Shown here: positions 30,557-37,811 of the stretch, piece by piece
Position numbering within the stretch: the stretch's first letter is position 1
How the letters are laid out: every line of letters begins with the position of its first letter
Origin: Myxococcota bacterium
GTDB lineage: Bacteria; Myxococcota_A; Polyangia; Polyangiales; Sandaracinaceae
DNA: 64,000 nucleotides
Direction of reading: 5' to 3'
NCBI GenBank assembly: GCA_036149055.1
Contig: JAYZQJ010000047.1
Location: 1 to 64,000, forward strand
Translations under genes and position numbers: made by a program
Notes under the pieces: generated by a model
The model's database searches: none
The model's input: only the letters and a program-made list of their open reading frames with translations
Told to the model about the DNA's origin: nothing

Positions 30557-33076
30557 TCAGAGCCGGACGGCTTCGACCTGACCGAGCGCCGCCACGAGCT
30601 GCTGCACCCGGGGATCGTCCATCGCGCTCTTCACCTTGCCGCCCGCGTTCTTCACGTAGAAGGGCGGCAGCGCGTCCGCCCAGTGCTCGAAGAAGCGGTT
30701 GCCGGCGAAGACGATGTCGACGTGCTCGGGCTCGGCCTGCCCCGGCTCCTCGTCGAAGTCGACGTCGGCCCAGTCGATCTCCTCGGCCGCGTCCTCCGCC
30801 GCCCCGGTCGTCTCCGAGTAGCTCAGCCGGACGGGGATCTCCGGCGTCCGGCGCGCCCGGTCGCTGAAGAGGTGGAGCATCGCGTCGCTGATCTTCACCT
30901 GCATGATGGTGGCGATCAGGGCGAAGTCGACGTCGCTCTTGTTGAAGTAGGGGAAGATGGCCTTGCCGAGGACCGGGAGCAGCATCTTGCTCGTGCACAC
31001 CTCGCGCACGTAGCGCTCGACGAGGGCGCCCGACAGATCGAGCTCACTGCTCCGGAAGCGCGAGACCGCGCGCGCCGACCAGTGCTTCAGCACGTGCACC
31101 ATCAGCTTCTTCACCTTGTCGCTCACCTTGATCGACATGGGCGCGAGCGTCTTGTAGAAGGCGCGGATCTCCTGCTCGAGCTCGTCGTGCGGCAGCGTGA
31201 TCAGCTCGACGAGCTCGCCGAAGACCGCGCCGCTGTAGTGCTTGGTCATCTCCCCGCGCACCGCGTTGACCAGCGAGCGCGCGGCGTGCTCGAGGCGCTC
31301 CCGCTGCTCGGCCTCGTCGCGCGAGGGGGTCAACAGCTCGAGCGCCTGGAGCAGCTCCGCGTGGATGGCGCGCAGCTCGCCCATGAGCTCCTTTTTCTTG
31401 ATGTCTTCGGCGAGCTTGGCGCGGAGATGGGACGCGAGCAGCGGGATGCCCGAGCGCGGCAGGCCGTCGTCGCCCTCCCCCTCCATCGCCGCCCACTTGT
31501 CGCTGTGGTGCGCGACGAAGGTCTTGACCGCGCGCGACTCGTGATAGCCCCGCTTCACGGCGTCCCAGTCGGGCGAGCCGGGCCGCAGGGTGTTCATCTG
31601 ATCCGCGTAGGGGTTGCGGATCCAGAACATGTTGGCGAACGCGCGGCTCCGCTCGCCCCAGTTGTAGATCCAGCTCGCGTGGGAGCGGGCCCAGAACTCC
31701 ACGCACGCCTCCTCGACGCGCGACTCCCAGCGCTCCTTCGCGTTGTCGCTCCGCAGCGCGCCGAGGCTCATGTCGAACTTGGTCAGCGCCATGAAGAGGC
31801 TCGGCCGCTCGATCTCCTCGGGCTCGATCGGGGTCGGCGCGCCGTGACGGATCGCCAGCCAGCGCTCGACCTGGTGCTGCATCTGGATCGCCTCGGGCTT
31901 GGTCGGGCCGGGCGAGGCGAGCACGAGCGCGGTGATCTCCCGGTCGAGCGAGAACTGCTCGAACAGGAACGTGAGCTTGCCGCGCTTGAAGACCTCGATG
32001 GCGTTCTCGAGGTTGCCGGTGTTGAGCTCCCCCGGCTCGAAGCCGTTGATGCCCCGGAGCGCGCGGCCGCCCGGGAAGTCGAGCAGGTCGGTGTTCTCGA
32101 GCAGCGAGCCCTCCACCTTCTGGAGCGGCAGCCGGACCTCGGCCACCAGCGCCGCGAGCACGCTCGGCTCGATGGAGACCTCCTTCTGGTGCGAGGGCAC
32201 CCAGACCTGCATCGTCGCCTGCGGCGTGCCGATCGCGTTGAGGCACGCGGCGTCGATGATGCTGGGGTTGGTGCTCGAGGCGCGCACGTAGTCGAGGTCG
32301 ACCTCCACCGCGTCGGGGTGGCCGAGGACCTCGAGGCCCGCGATCAGGCTGTCCGCGAGGCGATCGAGGTCCTGGCTGTAGCCGCGCCCGCCCCAGAGCA
32401 GCGAGAAGACGTGGCTCCAGCCGGCCACCGAGCCGATGCCCTTCTTCCAGCTCTCGGTGCGGAGCTCGGGGTGACGGCGCAGCTCGTTCAGGTAGGGGTG
32501 GCGGTCCTGGTACTTCTTCAGCAGGTCGTGCCAGACGGCGTCCCACGCCTGCCGGTAGAGCGCCGGCGCGGGCGGCCCGGACTGCAGCCGCGCGTCGCGG
32601 AGCGCGCGCTCCACCCGCTCGGGCTGAGCGGCGGGCGCGGTGCACTCCACGAGGAAGCCGGTCGCCAGCGACTCGAGCATCACCTCGAGGCTGAGCACCT
32701 GACAGTGGAAGTCGCCGCGGGTCAGCGGGCCCGGCCCGACGGCGCTCGAGAAGCGCGTGACCACGCCGGTCGACTCGACGCCCTTGGCCGGGTTGATGTC
32801 CTGCAGGAAGTCGACCTCCCCCTCGCGCGCCCGGACCTTCAGCGTGCCGAGCTCGTGGCTCAGCAGCGCGCCGACGAGGAACGACTTGCCGGCCTGCGAG
32901 GGCCCGAAGAAGCCGAGGCTCTGGGGGCGGCCCCACGCGCGCCGCAGCTTCTTCATGCGGAGCTCGAGATCGGTCAGGGCCTGCGCCTCGGGAGGCGGCT
33001 CGCCGTCGACCGCCAGCGCGGCCGCGCGCGCCTTCTCGATCGCCTCCTGGAGGGTCTGCAAGGTGTCTTCGTTCAT
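30557..33076 (-). CDS. srfC: SrfC-family P-loop GTPase
   Basis: GFFGPSQAGKSFL, ESTGVVTRF, DLLDFPG, FKRGKLTFLFE, ALTKFD; ATG overlaps the upstream stop. Confidence 0.85.
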   Translation of the reverse strand: MNEDTLQTLQEAIEKARAAALAVDGEPPPEAQALTDLELRMKKLRRAWGRPQSLGFFGPSQAGKSFLVGALLSHELGTLKVRAREGEVDFLQDINPAKGVESTGVVTRFSSAVGPGPLTRGDFHCQVLSLEVMLESLATGFLVECTAPAAQPERVERALRDARLQSGPPAPALYRQAWDAVWHDLLKKYQDRHPYLNELRRHPELRTESWKKGIGSVAGWSHVFSLLWGGRGYSQDLDRLADSLIAGLEVLGHPDAVEVDLDYVRASSTNPSIIDAACLNAIGTPQATMQVWVPSHQKEVSIEPSVLAALVAEVRLPLQKVEGSLLENTDLLDFPGGRALRGINGFEPGELNTGNLENAIEVFKRGKLTFLFEQFSLDREITALVLASPGPTKPEAIQMQHQVERWLAIRHGAPTPIEPEEIERPSLFMALTKFDMSLGALRSDNAKERWESRVEEACVEFWARSHASWIYNWGERSRAFANMFWIRNPYADQMNTLRPGSPDWDAVKRGYHESRAVKTFVAHHSDKWAAMEGEGDDGLPRSGIPLLASHLRAKLAEDIKKKELMGELRAIHAELLQALELLTPSRDEAEQRERLEHAARSLVNAVRGEMTKHYSGAVFGELVELITLPHDELEQEIRAFYKTLAPMSIKVSDKVKKLMVHVLKHWSARAVSRFRSSELDLSGALVERYVREVCTSKMLLPVLGKAIFPYFNKSDVDFALIATIMQVKISDAMLHLFSDRARRTPEIPVRLSYSETTGAAEDAAEEIDWADVDFDEEPGQAEPEHVDIVFAGNRFFEHWADALPPFYVKNAGGKVKSAMDDPRVQQLVAALGQVEAVRL

Positions 33077-37811: not shown

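What the first reader, a model, noticed from the sequence alone, without database searches (positions are those of the whole stretch)
30557..37811. srfB-grpE-like-srfA-srfC operon: candidate Hsp70/GrpE/dynamin-like membrane machine
Seen: four co-oriented genes with start/stop overlaps (srfB/orf at 35052-35055, srfA-like/srfC at 33076) and a 12-nt gap between orf and srfA-like. SrfB carries all five actin/Hsp70 ATPase motifs in order: phosphate-1 LDFGNSRS, connect-1 VDEAMAA, phosphate-2 VDIGGGTSD, adenosine LAGRTSKL, connect-2 DPKSTVAAGAA. SrfC carries G1 GPSQAGKS, G2 ESTGVVT, G3 DFPG and G4 TKFD plus long helical regions, which is the dynamin-like pattern. The SrfA-like gene is a single-pass membrane protein. 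Known: enterobacterial srfABC is annotated as a virulence factor of unclear mechanism, in the order A-B-C. Inference: in this apparently free-living myxobacterium the genes are reordered and joined by a GrpE-like gene. The system may be an NTP-driven chaperone, membrane-remodelling or conflict module rather than a simple toxin.
Basis: partly seen in the sequence, partly recalled or inferred. Interest (0 to 1): 0.85.

Follow-up and report, generated by a model that had tools for sequence, protein, structure and literature searches.

The report
SrfABC variant: Hsp70, GrpE, dynamin operon
A four-gene relative of the poorly understood SrfABC "virulence" operon, found in marine and soil myxobacteria, encodes a dynamin-shaped membrane GTPase, an Hsp70-like ATPase, a probable GrpE-type helper and a membrane anchor, so SrfABC looks more like a machine working on the cell's own membrane than a simple toxin.

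Summary

SrfC models as a dynamin-superfamily GTPase: all Foldseek rows shown are dynamin-family, 23 at E<=0.001. SrfB matches DnaK by profile (96%) and keeps the Hsp70 catalytic positions; it was not folded. The orf's best fold match is GrpE in three searches, but weakly (Z 6.0). The SrfA-like gene is a probable, very diverged SrfA.

The orf and srfC occur in the same 28 of 301 genomes of the order; 24 of 28 keep the four genes together. Ca. Riflebacteria share the order, with an orf homologue. RNA contigs bridge all three junctions.

Best reading: a machine on the inner face of the cell's own membrane, with SrfA as anchor, SrfC remodelling membrane and SrfB plus orf controlling assembly. That role is inferred.

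Dynamin-Hsp70 pairing is in print for cyanobacteria. This scan earlier noted SrfB as Hsp70-like and dynamin-Hsp70-GrpE modules on other DNA. I found no paper that calls SrfC a dynamin.

The parts
35052..37811 (-). srfB: 919-aa divergent Hsp70-like (ASKHA/actin-fold) ATPase. About 200-aa N-terminal extension; nucleotide-binding domain about 210-765; then a hydrophobic linker and a C-terminal beta region that aligns with the start of the DnaK substrate-binding domain.
   Evidence: PF07520 E 3.5e-117. hhalign against DnaK: 95.9%, E 6e-9, residues 405-815; 77.9%, residues 658-870; 90.4%. Also MreB 87%, but only 43 columns. Atlas features nearest DnaK/Hsp70 clusters. D216, K310, E464 and T510 are invariant in 121 close homologues. 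Not folded.
34459..35055 (-). orf: 198-aa probable GrpE-type nucleotide-exchange factor. Helical bundle plus GrpE-like beta domain in residues 97-198; short helices instead of the long N-terminal coiled coil.
   Evidence: AF2 pLDDT 92. 8 of the top 10 Foldseek rows are GrpE chains, best E 0.049. Top hit among 48,161 chains is GrpE 1dkg_B, Z 6.0, rmsd 4.4, 92 aligned, the only Z>=5. Top four rows are GrpE. FDxxxHE motif in 115 of 120 homologues. Profile against GrpE is not significant, 0.4%.
33076..34446 (-). srfA-like: 456-aa single-pass membrane protein. Conserved N-terminal domain (33985-34434), acidic linker, membrane helix (about 33724-33780) followed by a conserved Cys, Gly/Ser/Asp low-complexity linker, small conserved C-terminal domain (33079-33264).
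   Evidence: Alignment. Membrane helix and following Cys in 29 of 29 distinct copies. N-domain against other SrfA N-domains: 85%, E 6e-6; 11%; 1% against the Riflebacteria set. One of 9 members hits NF040486 SrfA at E 0.0086.
30557..33076 (-). srfC: 839-aa dynamin-superfamily GTPase. G1 at 58, G2 at 101, G3 at 333, G4 at 432; a large insert between G2 and G3; a bundle of N-terminal, post-G and C-terminal helices; a helical stalk; an acidic disordered tip (747-790) with no membrane helix.
   Evidence: PF10139 E 1.4e-77. AF2 pLDDT 83.6. Foldseek: 23 matches at E<=0.001, all rows shown dynamin family, top SynDLP 3e-8, then BDLP. VIA top eight: Fzo1 Z 14.4, SynDLP, MFN2, EHD4, BDLP, the 5owv dynamin pair, SynDLP, IniA.
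20499..21704 (-). Displaced fifth gene: Sel1-like repeats plus a hydrophobic C-terminal region. Its orthologue directly follows srfC in most relatives.
   Evidence: Within 700 nt of srfC in 18 of 28 order genomes and seen in 21 of 28 fetched stretches. Sel1 hits in relatives, E 9e-7 to 4e-3. Alignment, whose profile includes this gene.
30406..37926 (.). Stretch covered by two long RNA contigs (30406-33459 and 34048-37926) in a seawater metatranscriptome; the outer ends lie 150 and 115 nt outside the four genes.
   Evidence: run X1, records 6 and 8. Contigs show no strand and no single transcript, and DNA may be present in the library.

Best explanation
It is a nucleotide-driven machine on the cytoplasmic face of the cell's own inner membrane, used for envelope remodelling or repair. 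(1) The SrfA-like protein spans the membrane; its small outer domain on a flexible linker meets an envelope cue and its cytoplasmic N-domain is the docking site. The membrane helix is shown; topology, sensing and docking are inferred. (2) SrfC is a dynamin-like GTPase without its own membrane helix, so it is recruited by SrfA and uses GTP-dependent oligomerisation to bend, tether or seal membrane. Fold and motifs are shown on a model; the action is inferred. (3) SrfB is a dedicated Hsp70-like ATPase that grips SrfA or SrfC and sets assembly and disassembly. ATPase motifs are shown; the client is inferred. (4) The orf is SrfB's private GrpE-type exchange factor and resets it. The fold likeness is weak; the activity is inferred. 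A Sel1 membrane protein is a likely adaptor. Confidence is about 0.85 for the Hsp70-like plus dynamin-like architecture, about 0.7 for GrpE-type activity, and about 0.5 for this whole reading including the role.
For: Dynamin fold with nearest neighbours among membrane-remodelling BDLP, SynDLP, mitofusin and IniA. Intact G1-G4 and Hsp70 catalytic positions across the Polyangiales group. GrpE is the top fold match. A second phylum, Ca. Riflebacteria, carries an orf homologue in the same slot (92%, E 8e-7) that is closer to GrpE (23%, E 9e-4). Fixed order and co-occurrence. One copy in the own genome, beside a separate housekeeping dnaK-grpE pair on contig C1. RNA cover in two studies. In print: SrfA, B and C co-immunoprecipitate (PMC6950479); an AF3 model has SrfA as platform for B and C, with a membrane helix and no signal peptide (10.64898/2026.09.18.752743); Salmonella srf mutants lose swarming only (PMC4219756).
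Against: No biochemical data. SrfB was not folded, and it matches MreB (87%) nearly as well as DnaK by probability, though over far fewer columns. PF00012, PF00350 and PF01025 are not hit. The orf-GrpE scores lie in the range that the tool says may mean only a common arrangement (Z under 8), and the direct profile match is not significant. No J-domain gene was found in the Polyangiales loci with a four-seed profile. SrfC has no hydrophobic paddle. The distribution is patchy, 28 of 301 genomes and 10 of 31 in the own family, as defence systems often are. Xenorhabdus SrfABC is reported cytotoxic to insect and HeLa cells (PMC6950479). Many other srf loci lack a detectable orf homologue and have degenerate G motifs, so the mechanism may not carry over to them.
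Confidence: 0.5

Rival explanations
1. Anti-phage or conflict system. SrfA senses phage entry or envelope damage, the SrfB-orf pair acts as a threshold switch, and SrfC polymerises on the membrane to block spread or kill the infected cell.
For: Patchy presence with all-or-none co-occurrence. Hsp70 plus GrpE is a theme of GAP1-N2 GTPase conflict systems (PMC7159879). Dynamins are cited as immune GTPases (10.64898/2026.10.19.760177). srfB relatives lie on 144 plasmid records. Anti-phage roles of DynA and Eleos are recalled, not checked in a paper here.
Against: No PADLOC match for any of the four. The window neighbours that I scanned are housekeeping or envelope genes such as thiolase, isochorismatase and PAP2. 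No variable effector slot was seen: the order is fixed in 24 of 28. No GAP1 or DO-GTPase gene was recognised, although I had no profile for them.
Confidence: 0.22
2. Machinery for a surface behaviour of these myxobacteria: vesicle or tube formation, membrane exchange between cells, or surface motility. SrfC shapes the membrane at sites marked by SrfA and the Sel1 protein.
For: Salmonella srfC, srfB-polar and operon mutants are poor swarmers and normal swimmers, and the operon is under FlhDC control (PMC4219756). Vesicle export is proposed for SrfABC (10.64898/2026.09.18.752743). Canonical loci sit beside lipoprotein-transport and signalling genes (PMC3608642).
Against: Not found in 273 of 301 genomes searched in the order, many of them near-complete members of the same family, so it is not core motility machinery. 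The Lol-like ABC, vWA and SUMF1 cassette does not flank the window's operon.
Confidence: 0.15
3. Exported tripartite toxin used against prey or eukaryotic cells, as reported for Xenorhabdus SrfABC and as implied by the HopL1 effector name of SrfC.
For: Cytotoxicity and complex formation in print (PMC6950479). A deletion of a cluster with a hopL1-like gene lowers potato maceration (PMC3486870). One database names a SrfC homologue HopL1. Predation by many myxobacteria is recalled knowledge.
Against: SrfA is membrane-anchored. A GrpE-type cofactor fits a cycle inside the producing cell. The preprint argues against secretion by known systems, and hopL1 clusters occur in strains without type III secretion. 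Carriers include uncultured environmental Riflebacteria. The toxicity passages I read used lysates, purified proteins or forced expression.
Confidence: 0.08
4. The core is right but the orf is not an exchange factor: it is a scaffold or adaptor with only a chance or vestigial GrpE likeness, and SrfB works like an actin-type (MreB/FtsA) filament or switch rather than a chaperone.
For: Z 6.0 and Foldseek E 0.049 are weak. Profile match 0.4%. No long coiled coil in the monomer model. SrfB matches MreB at 87%. Xenorhabdus SrfB may form a homomeric complex. No J-domain partner found.
Against: GrpE chains from several species rank first in all three searches. The conserved FDxxxHE motif aligns on GrpE's own motif. 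The gene directly follows an Hsp70-like gene in two phyla. SrfB continues past the nucleotide domain into a DnaK-like linker and beta domain.
Confidence: 0.2

Closest known systems
SrfABC operon (Salmonella, Xenorhabdus, Klebsiella plasmids; SrfC = HopL1-like; PF07520, PF10139, NF040486)
   Same: SrfB and SrfC are over the Pfam cut-offs. A single-pass SrfA-like protein with a related N-domain is present. A membrane plus helical-repeat gene often follows srfC in both.
   Different: The order is B-orf-A-C, not A-B-C. The extra GrpE-like gene was not detected in 5 plasmid loci or in the non-Polyangiales, non-Riflebacteria metagenome loci. The SrfA C-domain lacks the FLNGxW lipocalin motif and its four Cys. 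SrfC matches only profile positions 7-637 of 878. There is no flanking ABC/vWA/SUMF1 cassette. G motifs are intact here but often degenerate in the other group.
Chaperone clade of cyanobacterial dynamin-like proteins (Jilly et al. 2018, PMC5827413; passages read)
   Same: A dynamin-like gene is linked to a DnaK-domain gene, and the authors propose that the two activities are coupled.
   Different: That DnaK domain is recognisable by Pfam-type annotation, while SrfB misses PF00012. The paper's text has no occurrence of GrpE or Srf. It names no SrfA-type anchor in the passages read.
GAP1-N2 GTPase-centric conflict systems, HSP70+GrpE theme (Kaur et al. 2020, PMC7159879; section 29 read)
   Same: A TRAFAC GTPase with Hsp70, GrpE, membrane components and TPR-type repeats, proposed to act near the membrane.
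   Different: The GTPase there is a DO-GTPase with GAP1 and FNIII partners; here it is dynamin-like by fold. That text has no occurrence of dynamin or Srf. No variable effectors are seen here.
Bacterial dynamin-like proteins SynDLP, BDLP, the 5oxf/5owv pair, IniA, LeoA; mitofusin/Fzo1
   Same: G domain, helical bundle and stalk.
   Different: Identity is 9-14%; there is an insert of about 200 residues between G2 and G3; the tip is acidic and has no membrane helix; PF00350 is not hit.
DnaK-DnaJ-GrpE chaperone system
   Same: ASKHA motifs, catalytic Lys/Glu/Thr positions, a linker and beta region after the nucleotide domain, and an adjacent GrpE-like gene.
   Different: SrfB is 919 aa with large inserts and no sign of a helical lid in the alignments. 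No J-domain gene was found nearby. The genome has its own dnaK-grpE pair elsewhere.

Membership tests
SrfABC operon | SrfB (PF07520) over cut-off | tested here: met
   393 bits against 27.1
SrfABC operon | SrfC (PF10139) over cut-off | tested here: met
   262 bits against 28.1, profile 7-637 of 878
SrfABC operon | SrfA family protein (NF040486; N-domain, membrane helix) | tested here: inconclusive
   No hit for the window's protein; 1 of 9 homologues at E 0.0086; hhalign 85%, 11% and 1% with three profile pairs; membrane helix in 29 of 29
SrfABC operon | SrfA C-terminal lipocalin-like domain (FLNGxW, four Cys) | tested here: not met
   Motif absent from 9 aligned copies. It is also absent from 2 of 4 plasmid SrfA, so it is not universal
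SrfABC operon | Gene order A-B-C | tested here: not met
   B-orf-A-C in 24 of 28 order genomes; A-B-C in the 4 annotated plasmid loci
SrfABC operon | Heteromeric A-B-C complex; cytotoxicity | not testable with these tools
Hsp70 family | Five ASKHA motifs in order | tested here: met
   Aligned to DnaK motifs; conserved in 91 diverse SrfB
Hsp70 family | Catalytic Lys, Glu and Thr positions of DnaK (roles recalled) | tested here: met
   K310, E464 and T510 invariant in 121 close homologues; the Lys mapping rests on a low-scoring alternative alignment
Hsp70 family | Hydrophobic linker and beta substrate-binding domain with lid | tested here: inconclusive
   Aligned to DnaK 281-477 and to 427, but only to 380; no model; no lid region seen
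Hsp70 family | PF00012 match | tested here: not met
   No hit at E<=1
Hsp70 family | J-domain partner; ATP-driven client binding | tested here: inconclusive
   No J-domain hit in the Polyangiales loci with a four-seed profile; activity not testable
GrpE | Helical bundle plus C-terminal beta domain | tested here: inconclusive
   Best match in three searches, but Z 6.0, rmsd 4.4, 92 residues
GrpE | FDPxxHE-type motif at the start of the beta domain | tested here: met
   FDxxxHE in 115 of 120, aligned on the GrpE motif; the Pro is not kept
GrpE | Long N-terminal dimer coiled coil | tested here: inconclusive
   The monomer model shows six short helices in 1-95; a dimer was not modelled
GrpE | PF01025 match | tested here: not met
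   0 of 120 members; not among own-genome hits at E<=1
GrpE | Nucleotide exchange on an Hsp70 | not testable with these tools
   Needs biochemistry
Dynamin superfamily | G1-G4 motifs of a TRAFAC GTPase | tested here: met
   Positions 58, 101, 333, 432; conserved in the 29 Polyangiales rows
Dynamin superfamily | G domain flanked by a bundle and a helical stalk | tested here: met
   Model; Foldseek E 3e-8; VIA top eight all dynamin family, Z 11.8-14.4
Dynamin superfamily | Own membrane-binding paddle or membrane helix at the stalk tip | tested here: inconclusive
   No hydrophobic segment, maximum 1.44; the tip is acidic and disordered, with a conserved W/F motif in 88 of 120; amphipathic binding not tested
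Dynamin superfamily | GTP-dependent oligomerisation and membrane remodelling | not testable with these tools
   Needs liposome assays
GAP1-N2 conflict systems | DO-GTPase, GAP1 and FNIII components | not tested
   No profiles on hand; the four genes are accounted for by other folds
Known anti-phage systems (PADLOC 2.0) | Match to a defence profile | tested here: not met
   0 of 4 proteins at E<=0.1

The most novel reading that the evidence does not exclude
SrfABC as a whole, long filed as a virulence factor, toxin or type III effector (HopL1), is a widespread transmembrane-signalled mechanochemical system in which a dedicated Hsp70-GrpE cycle builds and dismantles a dynamin polymer on the bacterium's own membrane. 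The Polyangiales/Riflebacteria form is the complete, catalytically intact version. Many proteobacterial copies lost the exchange factor and let the GTPase decay into a scaffold. It would be a bacterial parallel to Hsp70-driven disassembly of membrane coats.
Probability: 0.3. Interest if true: 0.88.

Novelty: new variant of a known kind. Interest (0 to 1): 0.7.

Why it matters
srfABC occurs in many gamma-, alpha- and betaproteobacteria (PMC6950479) and on at least 144 plasmid records. It has been called a virulence factor, toxin or effector without a mechanism; PMC3608642 says its function is unclear. Assigning SrfC to the dynamin superfamily, SrfB to the Hsp70-like ATPases and the extra gene to GrpE turns that open question into standard assays: GTPase, ATPase, ADP release, liposome tubulation, localisation. 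It would add a large, unrecognised branch to the bacterial dynamins and give a compact model of chaperone-controlled dynamin assembly. A harmless marine myxobacterium with all motifs intact is a convenient place to test it.

Tried and rejected
Sequence searches of solved structures gave nothing significant for SrfB, SrfC or the orf, singly or as profiles.

NCBIfam and PADLOC gave nothing useful for the four proteins. The Atlas gave only sub-threshold hits for the orf (0.82).

The direct orf-GrpE profile comparison was not significant: 0.4%, and 4% after adding the Riflebacteria homologues.

A kinase-like fold for the SrfA N-domain could not be tested by profile: both the window's group and canonical SrfA scored 0.2% against 60 own-genome kinases, so the test has no power. 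The 100% match of Riflebacteria SrfA to the canonical set is circular and was discarded. The Riflebacteria hits of the beta-domain profile are in its own seed and are not counted as evidence.

Two long hits to the orf profile were not real fusions: P0421 is a frame-shifted srfB-orf read-through and P0419 is a repeat. Three weak SrfB matches in the phylum sample (G120, G285, G291) are below cut-off and were left out of the co-occurrence count.

No orf match on plasmids and no SrfB match in phages. No sigma-70-type promoter and no terminator on the coding strand. RNA contigs do not cover 33460-33570 and 33830-34047 in the pieces shown; this is no finding.

The first tree did not finish. The FastTree run joins Polyangiales and Riflebacteria SrfB with support 100 but carries a long-branch warning, so a common origin of the B-orf-A-C order is not shown.

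Complex prediction of SrfB with the orf was not available, so binding is open. SrfB was not folded because both fold jobs went to the orf and SrfC.

Literature searches: SrfB+Hsp70+dynamin 0 papers; HopL1+SrfC 0; SrfC+dynamin 5 listings with unrelated titles; GrpE+Hsp70+dynamin-like+operon 1 unrelated.
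Full report
Observation. The window holds four open frames on the minus strand: srfB 37811-35052 (919 aa), an orf 35055-34459 (198 aa), a srfA-like gene 34446-33076 (456 aa) and srfC 33076-30557 (839 aa). 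The junctions are a 4-nt overlap, a 12-nt gap and a 1-nt overlap. SrfB hits PF07520 (E 3.5e-117) and SrfC hits PF10139 (E 1.4e-77); the other two hit no Pfam family. The nearest named relatives are Sandaracinaceae at 80-82% identity, and near-identical sequence is in seawater RNA runs, so the host is probably a marine Sandaracinaceae myxobacterium.

SrfC. An AlphaFold2 model from 120 homologues has mean pLDDT 83.6. Foldseek finds 23 matches at E<=0.001, and every row shown is of the dynamin superfamily; the best are SynDLP (3e-8) and BDLP. Against 48,161 chains the top eight are Fzo1 (Z 14.4, rmsd 7.5, 337 aligned), SynDLP, MFN2, EHD4, BDLP, the 5owv dynamin pair, SynDLP again and IniA; small GTPases such as EngB come lower (Z 10.3). 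TM-scores are low (about 0.2) and identity is 9-14%, so this is a distant branch. The model has helices before and after the G domain, a helical stalk (588-735) and a returning C-terminal pair of helices. The segment between them (747-790) is acidic and disordered, with a conserved W/F motif in 88 of 120 homologues. By my recall this is where BDLP and mitofusin carry their membrane-binding part. SrfC has no hydrophobic segment, so I infer that it needs a membrane partner.

SrfB. No solved structure matches by sequence. Profile comparison with DnaK gives 95.9% (E 6e-9, residues 405-815) for an 11-sequence diverse alignment, 90.4% for 91 sequences, and 77.9% for 121 close homologues. The last alignment runs through a hydrophobic linker into the DnaK beta domain (residues 658-870 on DnaK 281-477). 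Mismatched controls score 0.1-0.2%. MreB also matches, at 87%, but over 43 columns against 239 for DnaK. Atlas features put SrfB nearest clusters named DnaK or carrying PF00012 (0.95 and 0.89). D216, K310, E464, D505, T510 and G703 are invariant in the close set; their roles in DnaK are recalled. SrfB is therefore an ASKHA ATPase with good support and Hsp70-like with fair support. It was not folded.

The orf. It has 291 homologues at 90% clustering and 63 hits among 1.84 billion representatives. The model is confident (pLDDT 92). GrpE chains are 8 of the top 10 Foldseek rows, though the best E is only 0.049. GrpE 1dkg_B is first among 48,161 chains and the only one with Z>=5 (Z 6.0, rmsd 4.4, 92 aligned). 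Four GrpE entries lead the second look. The match covers residues 97-198. An FDxxxHE motif is kept in 115 of 120 homologues and aligns on GrpE's own motif, but the profile score is not significant (0.4%). These Z values lie in the range that the tool calls possibly a common arrangement, so I put GrpE-type activity at about 0.7.

SrfA-like. It has a conserved N-domain, one membrane helix followed by a Cys in 29 of 29 distinct copies, a low-complexity linker and a small conserved C-domain. Its N-domain aligns with SrfA of plasmid loci at 85%, but at only 11% and 1% with other profile pairs. The same helix-then-Cys pattern is in 13 of 44 other SrfA. It is probably a diverged SrfA with a different outer domain. 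A preprint reports a kinase-like, non-catalytic fold for SrfA-N; my profile test of this had no power.

Conservation. In 401 phylum genomes, srfB over cut-off and the orf mark the same 7. In 301 order genomes, srfC and the orf mark the same 28. I fetched all 28 neighbourhoods. B-orf-A-C is contiguous in 24, orf-A in 27, A-C in 26 and B-orf in 25. In the four exceptions the missing genes that I looked for lie elsewhere in the genome: srfB 131 kb away in G140, 8 kb away in G636, and with the orf on another contig in G502; srfC lies 7.5 kb from srfA in G549. One of the 24 (G499) has frame-shifted srfB and srfC. A Sel1-repeat membrane gene follows srfC within 700 nt in 18 of 28; here it lies at 21704-20499. 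Kin are not independent, and the metagenome scan kept only the best 80 of at least 513 loci.

A second lineage. Seven of those 80 loci have a 250-aa gene directly after srfB. Where the contigs reach, a Sel1 gene precedes srfB and srfA and srfC follow. Database names place the lineage in Ca. Riflebacteria. The 250-aa gene is homologous to the orf (84-92%, E 7e-6 to 8e-7) and is itself closer to GrpE (23%, E 9e-4), which bridges the gap in part. No orf homologue was detected in the other metagenome loci or in five plasmid loci; a gene as diverged as the orf could be missed. In those other loci the SrfC G motifs are often degenerate, and 33 of 47 SrfB differ at the catalytic Lys position, while the Polyangiales set is intact. 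A FastTree of 38 of 91 SrfB puts Polyangiales and Riflebacteria on one side of a branch, with a long-branch warning.

Expression. In one seawater metatranscriptome two contigs cover 30406-33459 and 34048-37926, bridge all three junctions and end just outside the four genes; the flanks are covered only by short pieces. Other runs, including a second study, bridge single junctions. Contigs show neither strand nor one transcript, and DNA may be present, so this is a hint.

Mechanism. The best reading is a machine on the inner face of the cell's own membrane. SrfA anchors and perhaps senses. SrfC is recruited and remodels or seals membrane in a GTP cycle. SrfB binds SrfA or SrfC and controls assembly in an ATP cycle, and the orf resets SrfB. 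The genome has a separate dnaK-grpE pair and 14 PF00012 matches, and one copy of each operon gene tested, which fits a dedicated pair. Shown: genes, motifs, predicted folds, co-conservation, RNA cover. Inferred: binding, all activities, topology and the biological role. I give the whole reading 0.5; phage defence 0.22; surface behaviour or vesicles 0.15; exported toxin 0.08. The separate possibility that the orf is only a scaffold gets 0.2.

What is in print. PMC6950479 (part 1 of 4 and passages) reports cytotoxicity and an A-B-C complex for Xenorhabdus, and its text has no occurrence of ATPase, GTPase or domain. The preprint 10.64898/2026.09.18.752743 (passages and part 1 of section 9) gives SrfA-N, the membrane helix and an AF3 complex, and names no fold for SrfB or SrfC in what I read. 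PMC4219756 (passages) reports a swarming defect. PMC3608642 and PMC3486870 (passages) describe the neighbouring lipoprotein-transport genes and HopL1. PMC5827413 (passages) describes cyanobacterial dynamin-like genes followed by DnaK-domain genes. PMC7159879 (passages and section 29) describes GTPase conflict systems with Hsp70 and GrpE. Searches pairing Srf terms with Hsp70 or dynamin found no relevant paper. The library lacks most subscription papers, and I could not check whether curated databases already place these Pfam families in the actin-ATPase and P-loop clans.

Earlier notes of this scan (unchecked AI notes) already called a SrfB relative Hsp70-shaped with GrpE-like cofactors, described a SrfA variant, and listed several dynamin-Hsp70-GrpE modules in other phyla. 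None of those returned names SrfC as a dynamin. They are leads, not support, and they show that the theme recurs.

Verdict. It is a new variant of a known operon rather than a new kind of system. Its value is that it gives SrfABC a testable mechanism. Interest 0.7.

Noticed in passing
window 33724-33780 and the next codons (srfA-like): The membrane helix is followed by a Cys in 29 of 29 distinct Polyangiales copies and 13 of 44 other SrfA (LRGC, LPAC, LRAC types). It resembles an internal lipobox, and canonical loci lie beside a Lol-like transporter. It could be a lipidation and release site or a dimer disulfide.
   Followed up: partly
L115-L118, L137, L147, L164: Ca. Riflebacteria carry sel1-srfB-X-srfA-srfC, where X is an orf homologue with a clearer GrpE-like tail.
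   Followed up: yes
L121-L174 and L090 (other srf loci): Many SrfC copies have degenerate G1, G3 and G4 motifs and many SrfB differ at the catalytic Lys position, suggesting pseudo-enzyme versions.
   Followed up: partly
L108, L110-L114, L119, L120, L128, L152: Competibacter-type loci have srfB, a small membrane protein, then srfC, with no SrfA N-domain hit; a membrane protein with a long N-terminal region follows srfC where the contigs reach.
   Followed up: partly
L021:5834-10863 and L022:7829-14379: Two genomes of another family of the order carry a very distant SrfB-like ATPase (17-18% identity, below cut-off) coupled to a large unknown gene; a separate uncharacterised system.
   Followed up: no
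L001:6750-7589, L002:7029-7892, L016:11926-12753 and others: A multi-zinc-ribbon gene is divergent from srfB in many Sandaracinaceae loci; in this genome it lies on another contig, C208.
   Followed up: partly
L091:14039-15058, L092:13936-14997, L093:13975-14979: The gene after srfC in three canonical plasmid loci is a membrane protein with a helical, Sel1-looking tail by eye (no Pfam hit), paralleling the Sel1 gene of Polyangiales and Riflebacteria.
   Followed up: partly
L255:8714-11720 (G140): A second, partial srfC plus Sel1 gene lies in a duplicated block about 12 kb from the first; a duplication or an assembly artefact.
   Followed up: no
L090:16525-20159: An HscC (Hsp70) gene with J-domain genes lies 3 kb downstream of srfABC on a Rahnella plasmid; seen in 1 of 5 plasmid loci.
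   Followed up: no
own genome, contigs C257, C249, C120, C141: The genome has 14 PF00012 matches and at least two other clear Dynamin_N genes; contig C257 has one of each about 18 kb apart.
   Followed up: no
window 29766-30503: A Cys-rich Stig1-like probable lipoprotein gene starts 53 nt after srfC on the same strand; a similar-looking gene follows srfC in the same-genus locus L019, but it was not seen in most others.
   Followed up: partly
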